Below the pieces are notes generated by a model that searched no databases, was not told where the DNA came from, and was given only the letters and a program-made list of their open reading frames with translations. From Candidatus Woesearchaeota archaeon (GTDB lineage: Archaea > Nanobdellota > Nanobdellia > Woesearchaeales > GW2011-AR9), in contig JACPCD010000006.1 in NCBI GenBank assembly GCA_016179955.1, positions 1 to 47,259 on the forward strand: 47,259 nucleotides of DNA, in the 5' to 3' direction. The translations under genes were made by a program, and so were the position numbers. Positions within the stretch are counted from its first letter, which is position 1. Each line of letters starts with the position of its first letter. Positions 4,211 to 9,050 of the stretch are shown one piece after another.

Positions 4211-4213
4211 TTA

Positions 4214-4303
4214 TAGTAAATTGCATTTATTTTGGAACTTTTATTATGTAATTTACTATTCTAGCAAATCTCACAAATGTTCAATAATCAATGAGATTTG
4301 CTA
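4214..4303. terminator. two tandem hairpins in the convergent intergenic region
   Basis: TAGTAAATTGCAT (4214-4226) pairs with ATGTAATTTACTA (4246-4258) at 12/13 plus one G-U. TAGCAAATCTCA (4262-4273) pairs perfectly with TGAGATTTGCTA (4292-4303), 12 bp. Both sit in T-rich context. Confidence 0.5.
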
Positions 4304-4330
4304 TTATCTTCCCTCTTCCGCCGGGAAAAA

Positions 4331-4375
4331 TTACGCTTTCTTTAGCAACCCCGCTACTTTCTCTTTCCCAATCAC
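4331..4375 (-). pseudogene. relic of the ancestral 3' end of lysK (VIGKEKVAGLLKKA-stop), in frame immediately after the current stop
   Basis: 21-nt exact identity (4353-4373 equals 5157-5177). By my count 33/42 nt match the internal segment encoding AIGKEKVAKLLKDA (5138-5179). Confidence 0.7.
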
Positions 4376-6709
4376 TTAAAACGTATACGCTATCTTTTCC
4401 ACTTTTCCCCCACAATACTTAACAATCCATTGGCTCGCTAATTTCATCGCTTCCTGCAACTCTTCATTAGACGTTACTTGTGTACCATCAACGTAGAGAA
4501 TAAGCTCTTTTGTTTTCTCGGAGATTTTGGTAAGTTCGGAATCCCGGTAATTTAAATCTTGACAGAAAATTAATTCTCTTGCATCCGCATATACTAATTC
4601 CCCCGCTTTCAATGCCTTAGGTTTATCTTCCAGCAAAGGTGTAAATGTCTCTCCGGCCTGAGCGAAACGTAAATAAGTCGGAAATGTCAAACTAGGCAGA
4701 TTAAATGCACCCATGGACACTCGTGTTTTCATAACTGCTAAATTATACACATCCACAACTGTGTTTACGGTGTACAACTCTTTCCCCTCTTTTACTCTCT
4801 TCAACAAAGCTAAAGGACTAGGCTTCTGTTTGGTTGGATCTACTCCCGTTGCTTTGTAGATACGCTTATATTCTTCCAGTAGTGGTATATCTTCTAATTT
4901 TGTGTTTTTAAATTCTTCAATTAATTTCCCAACTACTTCTTTCTTGAACTGTTGAAGTTTTGGGATTTCCTTTCGAACGGTTACTCCTTTGATAATAGCA
5001 ATACCTACCTTAAGACCAGGAAATTTCTGGAGAACATCATCTTGAATTTCTAATATGCCTTTAATCGGCTGGTAATGAGAAACAGCACTGATCTTCTTTT
5101 GCGGGGTAGTGCTTGAATATTTTTCCTCGGTATGATTCGCATCTTTCAACAACTTTGCTACTTTCTCTTTCCCAATCGCCAGGATGAACGAGGCTAATCT
5201 GGGTCCTTTTTCCTGGTTGATCAGCACCCGGTAGCATAGCTTGAAAAAATCTCCCGTTGGAAAATCATTATTCTTGCAGAGAATGTACATCTCTTCATGC
5301 AGTTCCACGTCGGTCCATTTTCTTTCCACTAACTTATCAGCCAGCAAATGTAGAATTTTCTTTTCTTCTTTTCTGACAGTAACCATGCATTTTTCCTGAA
5401 CGGTGAAGGTGAACTCTTCCGGCGCATGGTGCTGCAGCCAGTTCTTAGCGCAGAGTGCCCGTACTTTCAACCGCCGCCGGTCATGCTCATTTTTGAGCTC
5501 GTGCTTAAAGTAGGCAATAGTCTTATCCACCTCCAAGCTATGGGTCTGCAGCAGGGTCGTCAAATGCCTGAATCCGGGCTGGTAGGGGATAGTTTTGGGT
5601 ATCTTTCCAATGTAACTCAATTCATAGGCTGCTTTCTGCTTGATGCTCTCTTTCTCGTTAACGTTCTCAACCCCATAATAAATGCGCTCACACTTGTCAA
5701 AGTCTTCATAGATCTTCAGCACATCGGCGTCAAAACTGATGGCAAATTCTTTATTCGGTCGGGTACCTGCAAACAGGTATCGGACCACTTCCGGCTCATA
5801 TACTTCTAAGACATCGGCCAAGGATAAGACTTCGCCGCTGGAACTGGACATCTTCCCTTTTCCCCCTTTGACGTTAATGAAATCATACATCACATAGGTA
5901 GGGGCATCAAAATCCCATATTTTTTTGACAATCTGCTTTCCGGTATCAAAGCTTCCGCCTACTGTTGAGTGGTCTTTGCCGCCAGGCTCAAAGTCTACTT
6001 TTTCATAGGCCCAGCGCATCGGCCAGTCAATGCGCCATTTCAATTTCACGATGGTTTTTTTGCGGAAATCAATCTCTTCCTGCTGCCCGCACTCGCATTT
6101 GTAATTGATGGTATATCCTTTGCTCCATTGTAAGTGGGTGATAGTATTTTTGCCGCACTGCGCACAGAATACCGAGATGGGCAGCCACCCCTGATGAAGC
6201 GGCTCTTCCCGGAACTGGTTTAATATCTCTTTGATTGTTTCCGTCTGCTCCAGCGCTTTCTTGATTTCAGAGGCATATTCCCCCGAGTTATATTTTTCCT
6301 GCTGATATAAGAATTCAGGAGTGATGCCAACTGTTGGCACGCTTTCTTCCACTGCCTTTTGGTTATGCTCTGCATAATTGGCATGGCAGCCAAAGGTGTC
6401 GGGAACACTGGTGATGGCTTTCCGTAGATATTTCTGCAACTCTTCCGGTTTGGGCATGTTTTTAGGAACTTTCCGGAAGACGTCATAATTGTCCCAGGAA
6501 TAGATGAATCTTACTTTTTTACCTCTCTTTTCCAAGGCCCGTTTAACTAAGTCCACGGTTATGATCTCCCGGAAATTGCCGATATGAACAACGCCGCTGG
6601 GGGTGATGCCTGCTGCGACGGTATACTTTTTCTTATCTCCTTTTTCGCGGAGGATGTTTTCTGCCGCTACATCAGTCCAATGGTATAAAAGCTCTTTTTC
6701 ATCTGCCAT
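4376..6709 (-). CDS. lysK: class I lysyl-tRNA synthetase fused to a C-terminal B3/4 (PheRS-beta-like, COG3382) domain
   Basis: HIGN (VVHIGNFRE) and KMSSSSG (KMSKS-type) motifs and class I LysRS architecture run to about residue 545. The C-terminal ~230 aa carry B3/4 signatures (YKATGVDPTKQKPSPLALLKRVKEGKELYTVNTVVDVYNLAVMKTRVSMGAFNL). The likely start is the ATG at 6709 (MADEKELLYHW). Confidence 0.9.
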   Translation of the reverse strand: MADEKELLYHWTDVAAENILREKGDKKKYTVAAGITPSGVVHIGNFREIITVDLVKRALEKRGKKVRFIYSWDNYDVFRKVPKNMPKPEELQKYLRKAITSVPDTFGCHANYAEHNQKAVEESVPTVGITPEFLYQQEKYNSGEYASEIKKALEQTETIKEILNQFREEPLHQGWLPISVFCAQCGKNTITHLQWSKGYTINYKCECGQQEEIDFRKKTIVKLKWRIDWPMRWAYEKVDFEPGGKDHSTVGGSFDTGKQIVKKIWDFDAPTYVMYDFINVKGGKGKMSSSSGEVLSLADVLEVYEPEVVRYLFAGTRPNKEFAISFDADVLKIYEDFDKCERIYYGVENVNEKESIKQKAAYELSYIGKIPKTIPYQPGFRHLTTLLQTHSLEVDKTIAYFKHELKNEHDRRRLKVRALCAKNWLQHHAPEEFTFTVQEKCMVTVRKEEKKILHLLADKLVERKWTDVELHEEMYILCKNNDFPTGDFFKLCYRVLINQEKGPRLASFILAIGKEKVAKLLKDANHTEEKYSSTTPQKKISAVSHYQPIKGILEIQDDVLQKFPGLKVGIAIIKGVTVRKEIPKLQQFKKEVVGKLIEEFKNTKLEDIPLLEEYKRIYKATGVDPTKQKPSPLALLKRVKEGKELYTVNTVVDVYNLAVMKTRVSMGAFNLPSLTFPTYLRFAQAGETFTPLLEDKPKALKAGELVYADARELIFCQDLNYRDSELTKISEKTKELILYVDGTQVTSNEELQEAMKLASQWIVKYCGGKVEKIAYTF

Positions 6710-6800
6710 ACTGCCCGATGAACGGAACGAATTATATAAACGTTTCCTCAACAACTTTTATAAACCAAAAAGATAATCTTAACATAAAAGAGGTTTGAGC

Positions 6801-7682
6801 ATGATCATAACTACTTGCGGCAATTCCATTCCTATCGCCCGGCGGCTGGCAGCTGCTTTGCATGCCACTTTTTCTCCATTAACTATCTCTTCCTTTCCGG
6901 ATGGCGACCTCTACCTAAAATACACTACGGCACTAAAAGGGCAGAACGTAATCATCGTTCATTCCTTCCAGCCCCATTCCAACCAATCGTTGTTTAATCT
7001 TATCTTTGCGGCGGAAACGGCGAAGGATTTAGGTGCCAAAAAAGTTATTTTAGTTTCCCCTTACTTAGCGTACATGCGCCAGGACACCCGTTTCCATCCC
7101 GGAGAAGCCATCTCCAGCAAAATCATGGCCAAACATCTCAATCGGTGCGTTGACAAAATCATTACCATAGACCCGCATCTGCATCGTTATAAATCATTAA
7201 AAGATATCTTTACGATTCCGGCAGTGAAGCTCACGGCCAATGCCTTAATTGCAGATTACATTCAAAAACATTGTAAGAACGAAGTAATCATCGGGCCGGA
7301 CAGTGAATCGTTCCAGTGGGCGGCAGAGATTGCCCGGCATCTCCGAGTTCAAGCAACCGTGTTGAAGAAAACCAGATTCTCATCCCGCCATGTGCAAGTG
7401 AAGATGATAAAACCAATTTCTATCCGGGGGAAGAACGTGGTGATTGTAGATGACATCATTTCTACCGGCCACACCATAGCGGAAGCAGCGGAGCAGGCGA
7501 AAAAGATGGGGGCGAAGAGCATTACCGCCATCGGTGTGCATGGATTGTTGGTCGAGGGGGCGATGGCAAAACTGCGCCGTGCCGGCGTTAATAAAGTCAT
7601 CACTACTAATTGTATTGAGCACTCTACCAATAAGATCGACGTGACTCCTCTCTTGTTGAGGGAGCTGCGCAAAGAACAATGA
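6801..7682 (+). CDS. prs: ribose-phosphate pyrophosphokinase (PRPP synthetase)
   Basis: FPDGDLYLKY, the PRPP-binding loop VVIVDDIISTGHTI, and overall length. A TTG at 6795 or the ATG at 6801 could be the start. Confidence 0.9.
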   Translation: MIITTCGNSIPIARRLAAALHATFSPLTISSFPDGDLYLKYTTALKGQNVIIVHSFQPHSNQSLFNLIFAAETAKDLGAKKVILVSPYLAYMRQDTRFHPGEAISSKIMAKHLNRCVDKIITIDPHLHRYKSLKDIFTIPAVKLTANALIADYIQKHCKNEVIIGPDSESFQWAAEIARHLRVQATVLKKTRFSSRHVQVKMIKPISIRGKNVVIVDDIISTGHTIAEAAEQAKKMGAKSITAIGVHGLLVEGAMAKLRRAGVNKVITTNCIEHSTNKIDVTPLLLRELRKEQ

Positions 7683-7779: not shown

Positions 7780-8148
7780 TCATGAAGGAATAGTTAAGGA
7801 GTGAGTGGGAGAATAGTTTCCTACCAAGCGCCGTGAACCATACTGTTCTCTCATGAACGAGAGTACATCGTCCCACTGGTTGAAACAGACCCCATGGGAA
7901 TAATCTGCAGTATAATCTTCTTCCTCAATGATTGGTCTTACTATGTTGCCTCTCTCAAAATCAAGAACGCGGCCTCGCCGTGCCGAGACTTGATATCCAC
8001 AAGTGTCCAAAAGAGCACGCGGAAGCCGCTCGCGAACAATATCTTCTATGGTCTTTCCGGCATCCTCGGCCCCTTTTCCTTCATAAATCAAGACGAATTT
8101 AACAGCTTCAACATATCGCTTAAGCTCCGGTGGGATATATTTATCCAT
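7780..8148 (-). CDS. hypothetical protein
   Basis: ORF with a plausible start MDKYIPPELK at 8148. The longer track start at 8226 lies inside the TATA box of repeat R1. Confidence 0.45.
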   Translation of the reverse strand: MDKYIPPELKRYVEAVKFVLIYEGKGAEDAGKTIEDIVRERLPRALLDTCGYQVSARRGRVLDFERGNIVRPIIEEEDYTADYSHGVCFNQWDDVLSFMREQYGSRRLVGNYSPTHSLTIPS

Positions 8149-8205
8149 AATCTTATTCCTCCTGAAAATAGAGTATATAAGAATTATGAAAAAGAGGTTT
8201 GCATA

Positions 8206-8241
8206 TTCATCACTACCCAAAACCATATAAACTACGTTTAA
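8206..8241. repeat. 36-bp direct repeat R1 flanking the TA cassette (contains a TATA element)
   Basis: TTCATCACTACCCAAAACCATATAAACTACGTTTAA matches R2 at 9112-9147 at 33/36 positions. Confidence 0.8.
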
Positions 8242-8249
8242 ATAAAGAA

Positions 8250-8714
8250 TTACGCTAATAATGTCTGTTTTACCTCATCACTAAATTCATAATAATCTTT
8301 CTCTTTAAGTTCACGAATAATCTCTTGGATATCTATTTTAGAGAGAATTTTCTTTTTCTTACAATATAACAGGAATGTTGGTATATCCAATACAGTTACG
8401 CCTTTCTGTTCAGCATATCGGGTTGCAGATTGATCACTCATTAAGAGAATATCGCTGGTTTGTTCTGCTAAAGCTATACTTTCCATTTCGCCAGCACCAA
8501 ATTCTTCCGAGGAGATGCTTCCTTCAATGTTTTTAATCTCGAGGGCCTTGGAATCAATCAAGTTCAGAATATTGTCAAAGAAAGGTGCTTTCTCCAACTC
8601 ATGCAGCACCGAACTGACTATGGTAATTTTATTGGTATTGAATGCTTTTGGGATTAGATTTGTCCTCTTAATCTTGATAAAAGAACTCAAAAAATCAGTA
8701 TCGGCAATGGCCAT
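8250..8714 (-). CDS. PIN-domain toxin (DUF3368/COG2405-like)
   Basis: N-terminal acidic IADTDFL, a central D/E cluster, ~150 aa. It lies 3 nt downstream of a UPF0175-type antitoxin. Confidence 0.75.
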   Translation of the reverse strand: MAIADTDFLSSFIKIKRTNLIPKAFNTNKITIVSSVLHELEKAPFFDNILNLIDSKALEIKNIEGSISSEEFGAGEMESIALAEQTSDILLMSDQSATRYAEQKGVTVLDIPTFLLYCKKKKILSKIDIQEIIRELKEKDYYEFSDEVKQTLLA

Positions 8715-8717
8715 GGT

Positions 8718-9050
8718 TTACTTCGCCATTTTAATGAGTCTGGCTTCAATTTCTTTGCTTGTTTCTGCTCCTCTCCTCAATTTTATCCCTTTCTCCACCA
8801 GCATTTTTTTCATTTCTTCGTACCCTACATCTGCTATTTCAACTGCTTTTCCTAAAGAAATTTTGCCATCTCTATAGAGAACAGACGCCAAGGCTATTCG
8901 GAGGTCTTTTCTTGCTGCTAAAAGAGTTCTCATTGCGTCTCTCAAAAATTCAGAAGTGCTGTCATAATATCCAGTTTTAGGAATCGCACCTAATTCTAAT
9001 CGGAGCATCTCTGGTACAGTAAAACTTAAAGTTTCGCTTTTGATTACCAT
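8718..9050 (-). CDS. UPF0175-family antitoxin with RHH-like N-terminus
   Basis: The pattern ISLGKAVEIADVGYEEMKKMLVEKGI is typical of UPF0175 (COG2886), the usual partner of COG2405 PIN proteins. Confidence 0.75.
   Translation of the reverse strand: MVIKSETLSFTVPEMLRLELGAIPKTGYYDSTSEFLRDAMRTLLAARKDLRIALASVLYRDGKISLGKAVEIADVGYEEMKKMLVEKGIKLRRGAETSKEIEARLIKMAK

What the first reader, a model, noticed from the sequence alone, without database searches (positions are those of the whole stretch)
4331..6709. Class I LysRS fused to a B3/4 (PheRS-beta-like) domain, with an in-frame fossil of the old lysK terminus after the new stop
The 777-aa product (from ATG 6709; 792-aa track ORF) has a complete class I LysRS (HIGN, KMSSSSG) up to ...FILAIGKEKVAKLLKDA. 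A ~20-aa linker and a ~230-aa domain with clear B3/4 signatures follow (...PSPLALLKRVKEGKELYTVNTVVDVYNLAVMK...). On the minus strand directly after the TAA stop, and in the same frame, the sequence reads VIGKEKVAGLLKKA-TAA (4331-4375). This is a near copy of the internal codons for AIGKEKVAKLLKDA (5138-5179), with a 21-nt exact run (4353-4373 equals 5157-5177) and 33/42 nt by my count. That internal segment sits exactly where LysRS homology ends. The simplest reading is that a ~0.78-kb linker-plus-B3/4 module was inserted just before the native stop, duplicating the last 14 codons. B3/4 domains bind the tRNA 3' end and carry the editing site in PheRS-beta. A LysRS-appended copy would therefore be an unusual cis tRNA-binding or proofreading module. 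I do not know of this architecture being described.
Basis: partly seen in the sequence, partly recalled or inferred. Interest (0 to 1): 0.8.

Follow-up and report, generated by a model that had tools for sequence, protein, structure and literature searches.

The report
LysRS with acquired CtdA-like editing domain
An archaeal lysyl-tRNA synthetase gene has recently picked up, by recombination, a ready-made domain related to a known tRNA-proofreading enzyme, and the gene's displaced old end is still readable just after the new stop codon.

Summary
The minus-strand gene 4376-6709 encodes a complete class I LysRS (aa 1-524), a 21-aa linker and a 232-aa B3/4 domain. Directly after its TAA, in frame, lies VIGKEKVAGLLKKA-TAA, sharing a 21-nt exact run with the internal LysRS terminus.

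The fusion was not born here. The same C-terminal architecture occurs in at least 14 other Woesearchaeota contigs. Related modules sit on bacterial class I LysRS, on class II LysRS, and, from another subfamily, on the N-terminus of archaeal LysRS. The nearest characterised relative is the free-standing canavanyl-tRNA(Arg) deacylase CtdA, not PheRS-beta, and most CtdA pocket residues are kept.

In this genome the linker plus module is a low-GC island. Its GC3 is 0.35, against 0.55 for the LysRS body and both neighbouring genes. The break falls at the domain junction. The relic is a near-intact native terminus, 13/14 identical to that of an unfused homologue, not a decayed duplicate.

Best reading: a fused relative donated an ~0.8-kb cassette that recombined into a resident plain lysK and displaced its last 14 codons. 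Cis-editing of mischarged tRNA(Lys) is the likely function, but this is inferred. I found no description of this fusion in the searched literature.

The parts
4376..6709 (-). Fused gene lysK-B3/4: 777 codons plus TAA stop (4376-4378)
   Evidence: ORF list and sequence. Pfam and NCBIfam hits. Full-length homologues of 770-804 aa with the same architecture.
5138..6709 (-). Class I lysyl-tRNA synthetase portion (aa 1-524), with host-like composition (GC3 0.553)
   Evidence: TIGR00467 aa 10-522, 578 bits; PF01921 E 1e-129. Its GC3 equals that of both neighbouring genes, 0.571 and 0.551.
5138..5179 (-). Internal copy of the LysRS C-terminus (AIGKEKVAKLLKDA), now followed by the linker instead of a stop
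   Evidence: It lies at the position where 86/111 homologues terminate.
5075..5137 (-). Linker, aa 525-545 (NHTEEKYSSTTPQKKISAVSH); variable in length and sequence among orthologues
   Evidence: Alignment of the junctions of nine C-terminal fusions.
4379..5074 (-). CtdA-like B3/4 module, aa 546-777 (Pfam B3_4 core aa 614-767 = nt 4409-4870); foreign composition (with the linker, GC3 0.35)
   Evidence: PF03483 at 79-81 bits. PDB sequence hits 9mkl and 9f7e, both CtdA. Foldseek E 2e-14, TM 0.72-0.75 to CtdA. GC3 and change-point analysis.
4331..4375 (-). Relic of a native lysK terminus (VIGKEKVAGLLKKA plus TAA), in frame directly after the new stop
   Evidence: PSSM score 28.9 bits, within the native range; 13/14 identical to the terminus of plain LysRS P0039. 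z = 6.9 against shuffles.
4353..4373 (-). 21-nt exact repeat, second copy at 5157-5177; possible crossover region
   Evidence: two copies only, 0 expected. The crossover role is inference.
4326..4330 (-). T5 run immediately after the relic's TAA; probably the original lysK oligo-T terminator, still serving the fused gene
   Evidence: Read from the sequence. The terminator role is inferred from general knowledge of archaeal oligo-T termination. The bacterial-type hairpin scan found nothing.
4211..5140 (.). Low-GC island (about 0.375) flanked by host-like DNA (0.44-0.48) on both sides
   Evidence: Composition profile. ML GC3 change point after codon 540, support codons 509-554 = nt 5048-5183; 0/500 permutations reach the observed value.

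Best explanation
The gene is an intact lysK of a DPANN (Woesearchaeota-type) archaeon. Its class I LysRS carries a C-terminal domain of the CtdA / COG3382 branch of the B3/4 fold, via a 21-aa linker.

Shown:
- The linker-plus-domain segment is compositionally foreign to the LysRS body and to both neighbouring genes.
- The same module type sits on unrelated lysK lineages.
- A near-intact native lysK terminus with its own stop lies just after the new stop. A T-run that may be the old terminator follows it (its terminator role is inferred).

Inferred: a DNA segment from a related archaeon that already had the fusion recombined into a resident unfused lysK. That segment carried the 3' end of lysK, the linker, the module and the stop. 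The left crossover was in or near the conserved terminus-coding sequence. The resident last 14 codons were pushed downstream as a silent relic. The direct repeat of the terminus that results would let the cassette be lost or moved again by homologous recombination.

Inferred function: after LysRS charges tRNA(Lys), the CCA end can swing into the appended domain, which hydrolyses wrongly attached amino acids. This would be cis post-transfer editing, probably of cationic near-cognates of lysine. It would do in cis what free-standing CtdA does in trans for canavanyl-tRNA(Arg).
For: Architecture and family:
- Searches give the domain hits. One search gives HMM hits to CtdA chains 9mkl (E 5e-8) and 9f7e (E 9e-6), ahead of PheRS-beta.
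- In one search Foldseek ranks CtdA first (E 2e-14, TM 0.72-0.75).

Pocket residues:
- Module residues S88, L92, N113, G124, C173, N177 and R179 are invariant in nine orthologues. They align with CtdA S80, L84, N105, G116, C166, N170 and R172.
- Of these, N105, G116 and C166 were shown by mutagenesis to be functionally important (PMC12449066).

Recurrent fusion to LysRS:
- 72 of 92 module loci are single ORFs with class I LysRS. Seven are class II LysRS, four of the five tested above the TIGR00499 cutoff. N-terminal fusions use a different, CtdA-1-like subfamily.
- ArgRS and TyrRS fusions also exist.

Lateral acquisition here:
- GC3 is 0.553 in the LysRS body and 0.348 in the module (z 5.4); the neighbouring genes have 0.571 and 0.551.
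- The change point falls at codon 540 (support 509-554), and 0/500 permutations reach it. The low-GC island has host-like flanks on both sides.

Phylogeny:
- C-fusions are never monophyletic on the LysRS tree (0/200 bootstraps).
- The P0003 LysRS is 89% identical to plain LysRSs (bootstrap 98), yet its module is 84% identical to those of P0001, P0002 and P0005, whose LysRS parts are only 71-72% identical to that of P0003.

Relic:
- It is native-like.
- Only the two loci with a relic (the window and L001) show a strong drop in GC3 from the LysRS part to the module, among 11 compared.
Against: - There is no biochemical evidence for any LysRS-fused B3/4 domain.
- Two CtdA pocket positions differ: E118 is Phe and Q173 is Asp. 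Bacterial fusions replace the Cys with Asn. The chemistry and substrate are therefore open.
- A tRNA_bind domain occupies the same C-terminal position in other LysRSs (P0092, P0135). This fits a pure tRNA-affinity role.
- The donor is not identified; the nearest module is 84% identical.
- Only two relic-bearing loci exist. In L001 the flanks are compositionally heterogeneous, so which side is foreign there is unclear.
- The trees are simple NJ trees, and rate variation could mimic some of the incongruence.
- The contig is a metagenome assembly that I could not check against reads.
Confidence: 0.55

Rival explanations
1. The appended B3/4 domain is a non-catalytic helper. It only adds affinity for tRNA(Lys), or positions its acceptor end. 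This resembles the OB-fold or tRNA_bind extensions of other synthetases in small-genome organisms.
For: Other LysRSs in the same homologue set carry PF01588 tRNA_bind at the C-terminus (P0092; P0135). Mukai et al. 2017 (PMC5370408) noted a PheRS-beta B2-like OB domain on CPR LysRSs. Bacterial fusions lack the CtdA Cys.
Against: The CtdA catalytic and pocket residues (Asn, Gly, Cys, Asn-aromatic-Arg) are invariant in the archaeal C-terminal modules. The nearest characterised homologue is an active deacylase. P0135 carries both tRNA_bind and B3_4, so the two are not redundant.
Confidence: 0.25
2. The fusion was created in this lineage by inserting the module just before the stop, with a tandem duplication of the last 14 codons. 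The downstream copy has since decayed neutrally.
For: The module is flanked by a direct repeat of 42 nt with a 21-nt exact core. The low-GC island shows that an insertion happened.
Against: The architecture pre-exists in many lineages, with LysRS parts as divergent as 43-49%. The differences between the copies are of the selected type: 3 amino-acid changes, all at variable positions, and 4 synonymous changes; P 0.0005-0.01 under random decay. The relic matches another lineage's native terminus at 13/14. L001 has the same junction although synonymous sites between the two genomes are saturated (4-fold site identity 0.35-0.40).
Confidence: 0.1
3. The post-stop 14 codons are kept by selection. 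They might be translated by occasional stop-codon read-through, or serve as a 3'-UTR or terminator element. They would then not be a mere scar.
For: The relic is in frame, of native length and ends with a stop in both the window and L001. The two relics differ partly by synonymous-type changes. A T5 run follows the relic in the window.
Against: It is absent or unreadable in 12 of 14 other C-terminal fusion loci. The stop codon and its context differ (TAA GTG in the window, TAG ATT in L001). The L001 relic is clearly degraded (PSSM 2.3 bits against a native mean of 37). No conserved structure or downstream sequence was found.
Confidence: 0.05
4. The relic and the composition break are assembly artefacts. 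Two co-occurring strains, one fused and one plain, would have been joined through the shared 21-mer.
For: The contig is a metagenome assembly, and the repeat is an exact 21-mer located at the composition break.
Against: Host-like composition resumes on the far side of the module, so two joins would be needed. The junction TTTTAA|GTGATTGGG must exist in reads for either join. An independent assembly (L001, GCA_053532275.1) has the same layout without any long exact repeat. Modern assemblers finish with k well above 21 (general knowledge).
Confidence: 0.04

Closest known systems
CtdA, canavanyl-tRNA(Arg) deacylase (PDB 9mkl, 9f7e; PMC10018355, PMC12449066)
   Same: It has the same B3/B4-derived fold (Foldseek E 2e-14, TM about 0.75). 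Its size is about 230 aa. The pocket residues S80, L84, N105, G116, C166, N170 and R172 are shared by alignment.
   Different: CtdA is free-standing and acts in trans on tRNA(Arg). Here the domain is covalently fused to LysRS. Sequence identity is 19-23%. E118 and Q173 are replaced by Phe and Asp. The substrate is unknown.
B3/B4 editing domain of the PheRS beta subunit
   Same: It belongs to the same Pfam family (PF03483) and the same fold. Like the PheRS domain, the module is a cis domain of a synthetase. The catalytic-water Asn is shared.
   Different: It is not part of a PheRS beta chain (pheT_bact 27-31 bits against a cutoff of 403). E. coli H265 aligns with Gly. Structural similarity is weaker (TM 0.5-0.6).
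Synthetases with appended post-transfer editing domains (LeuRS, IleRS, ValRS, ThrRS, AlaRS, ProRS, PheRS) and their trans-acting homologues (AlaX, ProXp/YbaK, ThrRS-ed)
   Same: The logic is the same: a synthetic site plus a separate hydrolytic domain. The same domain family also exists both fused and free-standing.
   Different: LysRS is not on the list of synthetases with an editing domain (review PMC11415595). The known LysRS proofreading is pre-transfer (that review and general knowledge).
Other LysRS fusions: LysX (MprF-LysRS) and CPR LysRS with a PheRS-beta B2-like OB domain (Mukai et al. 2017, PMC5370408)
   Same: LysRS serves as a platform for C- or N-terminal accessory domains. The B2 case also borrows a PheRS-beta domain in uncultivated small-genome lineages.
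   Different: Those domains are a lipid-lysylation enzyme and an RNA-binding OB fold. They are not a deacylase-type B3/4 domain.
Campbell-type insertions that regenerate a target gene's 3' end and leave the displaced end as a repeat (for example, elements integrated in tRNA genes)
   Same: The inserted DNA is flanked by direct repeats of the target gene's 3' end. The functional copy lies at the left and the displaced native end at the right.
   Different: There is no integrase or other mobility gene. The insert is a single protein domain read in frame with the target. The repeat is 42 nt of coding sequence.

Membership tests
Class I lysyl-tRNA synthetase (TIGR00467 / PF01921) | Full-length match to the curated equivalog model above its cutoff | tested here: met
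   578.1 bits against a cutoff of 147.55, aa 10-522 on model positions 2-512 of 515. PF01921 E 1.4e-129.
Class I lysyl-tRNA synthetase (TIGR00467 / PF01921) | HIGH-type and KMSKS-type signature motifs | tested here: met
   HIGN and KMSSS are read in the translation.
Class I lysyl-tRNA synthetase (TIGR00467 / PF01921) | Lysine activation and tRNA(Lys) charging | not testable with these tools
   This requires an enzyme assay.
Pfam B3_4 (PF03483) | Score above the gathering threshold | tested here: met
   78.8 bits (full protein) and 81 bits (C-terminal 253 aa) against a threshold of 29.3.
CtdA family of aminoacyl-tRNA deacylases | CtdA-like B3/B4 fold over the whole ~230-aa protein | tested here: met
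   AF2 model with pLDDT 74. Foldseek top three hits are CtdA 9mkl and 9f7e, E 2e-14 to 5e-14, TM 0.72-0.77 over 234-236 columns.
CtdA family of aminoacyl-tRNA deacylases | Functionally important pocket residues N105, G116 and C166 | tested here: met
   They align with invariant N113, G124 and C173 of the module alignment. Their roles are described in PMC12449066.
CtdA family of aminoacyl-tRNA deacylases | Side-chain-facing residues E118 and Q173 (Gln or Glu) | tested here: not met
   The aligned residues are invariant F126 and D180.
CtdA family of aminoacyl-tRNA deacylases | Free-standing single-domain protein acting in trans | tested here: not met
   The domain lies in one ORF with LysRS, here and in 72 of 92 related loci.
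CtdA family of aminoacyl-tRNA deacylases | Hydrolysis of canavanyl-tRNA(Arg) | not testable with these tools
   This requires a deacylation assay.
PheRS beta-subunit editing domain | Embedded in a PheRS beta chain | tested here: not met
   pheT_bact scores 27-31 bits against a cutoff of 402.65, and only over the B3/4 region.
PheRS beta-subunit editing domain | Editing-site His (E. coli H265) | tested here: not met
   H265 aligns with CtdA G116 (PMC12449066), which is Gly124 in the module. In one search the PheRS 'MHAFD' motif aligns with 'MGAFD'.
Integrase-mediated integrative element | Direct repeats of the target's 3' end flanking the insert | tested here: met
   The 42-nt repeat at 5138-5179 and 4334-4375 has 33/42 identity and a 21-nt exact core.
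Integrase-mediated integrative element | Integrase or other mobility gene within the insert | tested here: not met
   The 0.8-kb insert encodes only the linker and the B3/4 domain.

The most novel reading that the evidence does not exclude
The linker-B3/4 segment is a self-contained editing-domain cassette. The direct repeat of the lysK terminus that it creates lets it be excised from, and inserted into, lysK genes of different lineages by plain homologous recombination. Small-genome archaea could thereby gain or lose post-transfer proofreading on LysRS, a synthetase not known to have any editing domain.
Probability: 0.2. Interest if true: 0.85.

Novelty: new variant of a known kind. Interest (0 to 1): 0.62.

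Why it matters
LysRS, in either of its two unrelated classes, is not among the synthetases credited with a post-transfer editing domain. Here a CtdA-type deacylase fold is fused to archaeal class I, bacterial class I and class II LysRS, at either end, through several independent events. Recurrent fusions of this kind ('Rosetta stone' evidence) argue strongly that this branch of the family works on tRNA(Lys). The fusions also give a concrete, assayable candidate function for hundreds of unannotated COG3382 proteins and for the uncharacterised non-CtdA-1 part of the family.

It is also notable that symbiotic, genome-reduced DPANN and CPR organisms gain an editing module, since host-restricted microbes are usually described as losing editing.

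The window itself captures the acquisition almost in the act. It shows a compositionally foreign domain, a breakpoint at the domain boundary and the displaced native gene end. This is a rare, clean natural example of how a domain is grafted onto an essential gene without disrupting it.

Tried and rejected
- **Circular permutation by tandem duplication** (B3/4-LysRS becoming LysRS-B3/4, with the relic as the end of a second LysRS copy). Rejected. N-terminal and C-terminal modules are only 26-34% identical and belong to different subfamilies: CRRWNWRE against FCxDLNYRD.
- **Ongoing gene conversion from the internal copy.** Not supported. The L001 relic is no closer to its own internal terminus (24/42) than to others (up to 29/42). 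The 21-nt run is largely the codon-conserved core that internal copies of different genomes also share, in runs of 14-16 nt.
- **Shared neutral relic from a common ancestor of the window and L001.** Rejected, because 4-fold sites are saturated (0.35-0.40 identity).
- **Relics in other fused loci.** A DNA repeat search and a protein-level search of the 120-150 nt after the stop in 90 loci found only the window (z 6.9) and L001 (z 4.7).
- **Downstream synteny or conserved non-coding sequence between the window and L001.** None was found.
- **A sliding-window identity scan for a sharp recombination breakpoint in the protein.** No clear breakpoint; the signal is noisy.
- **tRNA, Rfam and promoter/terminator scans around the relic.** Nothing was found.
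- **Literature.** Searches for COG3382 and for combinations of B3/B4 with LysRS, ArgRS, DPANN or CPR returned nothing on this fusion. The three CtdA papers do not mention fusions.
- **An empty-site relative of this genome.** None could be found, because the nearest LysRS in the databases is only 78% identical.
Full report

Yes. The minus-strand ORF 4376..6754 gives a 777-aa product from ATG 6709. Residues 10-522 match the archaeal class I LysRS equivalog TIGR00467 at 578 bits (cutoff 147.55), and PF01921 at E 1e-129. Residues 614-767 match Pfam B3_4 at 78.8 bits (cutoff 29.3).

The TAA at 4378-4376 is followed in frame by 14 codons reading VIGKEKVAGLLKKA and a second TAA (4375-4331). The internal codons for AIGKEKVAKLLKDA are at 5179-5138. 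The two stretches share 33/42 nt and a 21-nt exact run. That run occurs only twice in the 47-kb window, even allowing three mismatches, with none expected by chance.

The internal copy is where LysRS normally ends. Of the homologues that end with the LysRS part, 86 of 111 stop exactly 14 residues after the GPRLxxFIL motif.

**2. How common is the architecture?**

The best 120 homologues are DPANN sequences, labelled Woesearchaeota or Nanoarchaeota where named. They fall into three architectures:
- plain LysRS of about 523 aa;
- LysRS with a C-terminal B3/4 module (nine clusters, including the window);
- B3/4-LysRS with the module at the N-terminus (26 clusters).

A profile of the C-terminal module retrieved 82 further loci, making 92 held with the ten fetched earlier.
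- Five are more marine Woesearchaeota C-fusions.
- 72 of the 92 loci then held are single ORFs of class I LysRS plus module. Most of these are a bacterial-type class I LysRS only 23-29% identical to the window's. The names given by sources point to CPR bacteria: Peribacteria (L092) and Roizmanbacteria (P0124).
- Seven loci with no class I hit are class II LysRS plus the same module. Five were run against TIGR00499; four score above its cutoff and one falls just below. Two of the seven also carry DUF2000.

An exhaustive search of 1.84 billion representative proteins gave 2177 relatives at E up to 0.001. It also showed fusions to ArgRS, TyrRS and the N-terminus of a class II D/K/N synthetase.

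So the fusion is not peculiar to this genome. It is a widespread architecture that sources annotate only as 'lysine--tRNA ligase'.

**3. What is the module?**

By sequence profile, the best solved relatives are the canavanyl-tRNA(Arg) deacylase CtdA (9mkl E 5e-8, 9f7e E 9e-6), ahead of PheRS beta chains.

An AlphaFold model from the nine-sequence alignment has mean pLDDT 74. It matches CtdA first (E 2e-14, TM 0.72-0.77 over the whole length). PheRS beta follows at TM 0.5-0.6.

CtdA is an experimentally proven free-standing editing enzyme (PMC10018355, PMC12449066). I mapped its published pocket through the HMM alignment onto the nine-sequence alignment.
- Kept, by alignment: S80, L84, N105, G116, C166, N170 and R172 correspond to invariant S88, L92, N113, G124, C173, N177 and R179.
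- Changed: E118 and Q173 are invariant Phe126 and Asp180.

The scaffold and the catalytic-water Asn are therefore kept, while side-chain-facing positions differ. This is what a deacylase with another amino-acid specificity would look like.

The N-terminal fusions belong to a different, CtdA-1-like subfamily (FGAKPKKYKSS, ILCRRWNWRE). Bacterial C-fusions replace the Cys by Asn. Hence there were at least four independent fusions of this family to LysRS, across both unrelated LysRS classes. This is the strongest argument that the module's job concerns tRNA(Lys) or lysine analogues rather than a structural feature of one enzyme.

**4. What is the relic?**

The relic is rare. Among the 90 fused loci with enough sequence after the stop, only the window (z 6.9) and L001 have a terminus-like sequence there. 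L001 is the contig of the closest homologue, P0002, and reads TAG then in frame ITGEEKVVELLEKV-TGA (z 4.7).

The two genomes are saturated at synonymous sites (4-fold identity 0.35-0.40). DNA and genes downstream of the relic are unrelated. A neutral relic inherited from their common ancestor should therefore be unrecognisable.

The window's relic is nearly perfect.
- It scores 28.9 bits on a PSSM of 86 native termini (native mean 37.2, sd 4.5, minimum 25.5).
- It is 13/14 identical to the native end of the plain LysRS P0039 (EIGKEKVAGLLKKA). Only the junction-adjacent first residue (Val) is non-native.
- Its nine differences from the internal copy are four synonymous changes plus five changes in three naturally variable codons.
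- In simulations of nine random substitutions, three or fewer amino-acid changes occur with P = 0.0098. A PSSM score this high occurs with P = 0.0005.

The two copies thus diverged as working gene ends in different lineages and were then brought together. This is not an in-situ duplication followed by decay.

**5. Independent evidence for recent lateral acquisition.**

Third-position GC is 0.553 in the LysRS part and 0.348 in linker plus module (z 5.4). The flanking genes, a CxxCxxCC-domain protein and ribose-phosphate pyrophosphokinase, have 0.571 and 0.551.

A maximum-likelihood change point falls after codon 540 (support 509-554; LysRS ends at 524). None of 500 permutations reaches the observed likelihood. 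The GC profile shows an island of about 0.375 between flanks of 0.44-0.48, so a single chimeric join cannot explain it.

Among eleven C-fusion loci, only the window and L001 show a strong drop in GC3 from the LysRS part to the module; in L001 the difference is +0.169 (z 4.4), with the change point at codon 541 and LysRS ending at 543. These are exactly the two loci with a relic. In L001 the flanks are heterogeneous, so the direction of transfer there is unclear.

On an NJ tree of the LysRS parts, the C-fusions are scattered among plain enzymes (0/200 bootstraps monophyletic).
- The P0003 LysRS is 88-89% identical to plain P0054 and P0038 (bootstrap 98).
- P0007 is 84% identical to plain P0037.
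- The modules of P0001, P0002, P0003 and P0005 are 81-84% identical, although their LysRS parts are 68-77% identical.
- Those four modules also share a GC3 of 0.35-0.42, whatever the composition of the host gene.

L094 (plain, P0054) and L002 (fused, P0003) share both upstream prs and a downstream intron-containing tRNA-like gene. This gives an empty-site against filled-site pair.

**6. Mechanism proposed.**

Shown:
- an insertion of a foreign ~0.8-kb linker-plus-module at the end of a resident lysK;
- a displaced native terminus, with its stop and a T5 run (4326-4330), just downstream.

Inferred:
- The donor already had the fusion.
- The left crossover lay in or near the conserved terminus-coding sequence; the 21-nt identical core is a candidate site.
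- The right junction (stop, then terminus) was either inherited from a donor with the same repeat structure or generated by single-crossover insertion of a circularised fragment.

Either route would reproduce the same in-frame junction in different lineages, as seen in L001. Either would leave a 42-nt direct repeat able to delete the cassette precisely.

The function as a cis-editing domain is inferred from homology, pocket conservation and the recurrent fusions. The substrate is unknown. The acidic Asp180 in the pocket and the family's known preference for canavanine and arginine suggest cationic lysine look-alikes, but that is speculation.

**7. Comparison with what is known.**

[quoted passage not shown] It names CtdA as a free-standing relative of the PheRS domain.

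The CtdA papers do not mention fusions or LysRS. One of them defines a second, uncharacterised clade (CtdA-2) that includes its archaeal members. I did not test whether the module belongs to that clade.

The nearest literature precedent I found is a remark that a few CPR LysRSs carry a PheRS-beta B2-like OB domain at the C-terminus (PMC5370408). That is a different domain.

My searches cover only open-access papers and bioRxiv, so absence there is not proof of novelty.

**8. Verdict.**

There really was an insertion and the relic really is an old gene end. However, the fusion is an established, laterally spreading architecture rather than a local invention. Its closest characterised relative is CtdA.

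I rate it a new variant of a known kind: a synthetase with an appended editing-type domain, on a synthetase not known to have one. Interest is moderate to high, because it yields a direct, assayable hypothesis and a clean snapshot of domain grafting.

Noticed in passing
P0008-P0015 and about 18 other clusters; alignment: Many Woesearchaeota LysRSs carry the B3/4 domain at the N-terminus instead. That domain is a different, CtdA-1-like subfamily, with the CtdA motif CRRWNWR almost unchanged. Two subfamilies were therefore fused independently to the same enzyme, in opposite orders.
   Followed up: partly
L034, L042, L047, L051, L053, L060, L090; P0133, P0135, P0147, P0165: Class II LysRS, which is unrelated to class I, carries the same C-terminal module. 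It sometimes has additional domains: DUF2000 (weakly similar to PDB 2gax Atu0240), tRNA_bind and HD.
   Followed up: partly
P0171, P0236, P0200, P0205, P0251: Relatives of the module are also fused to the N-terminus of ArgRS (P0171 with two B3/4 copies), to TyrRS, to a class II D/K/N synthetase, and to ankyrin repeats. The ArgRS fusions would be a cis version of CtdA's known trans-editing.
   Followed up: no
P0092: A 636-aa Woesearchaeota-type LysRS has a PF01588 tRNA_bind domain at the C-terminus, in the place the B3/4 module occupies here.
   Followed up: no
L002:3094-3310, L003:4806-5160, L094:3420-3700 (opposite strand): Downstream of lysK in three related contigs lies a conserved tRNA-like gene on the opposite strand. 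It has GGTTCGAATCC T-arm and acceptor sequences, looks like a long-variable-arm type and has insertions that look like introns. ARAGORN does not call it. A second partial copy of its 3' end (ATGCGGAC...) sits next to the lysK stop.
   Followed up: partly
window 7800-9050: This is a second low-GC stretch (0.34-0.39). It contains a UPF0175 antitoxin-like ORF (8718-9050, minus strand) directly upstream of a 154-aa ORF with no Pfam hit (8250-8714, minus strand). The pair looks like a toxin-antitoxin module and may also be acquired DNA.
   Followed up: partly
window 1-47259: ARAGORN finds no tRNA gene and no Rfam family reaches its gathering score anywhere in the 47-kb contig.
   Followed up: no
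L001:1-3534 and 6378-6869: The contig with the second relic is compositionally patchy: gene GC3 ranges from 0.23 to 0.52. It carries small DUF433 and PIN-type genes upstream of lysK, unlike the prs-lysK synteny shared by the window, L002, L003, L006, L093 and L094.
   Followed up: no
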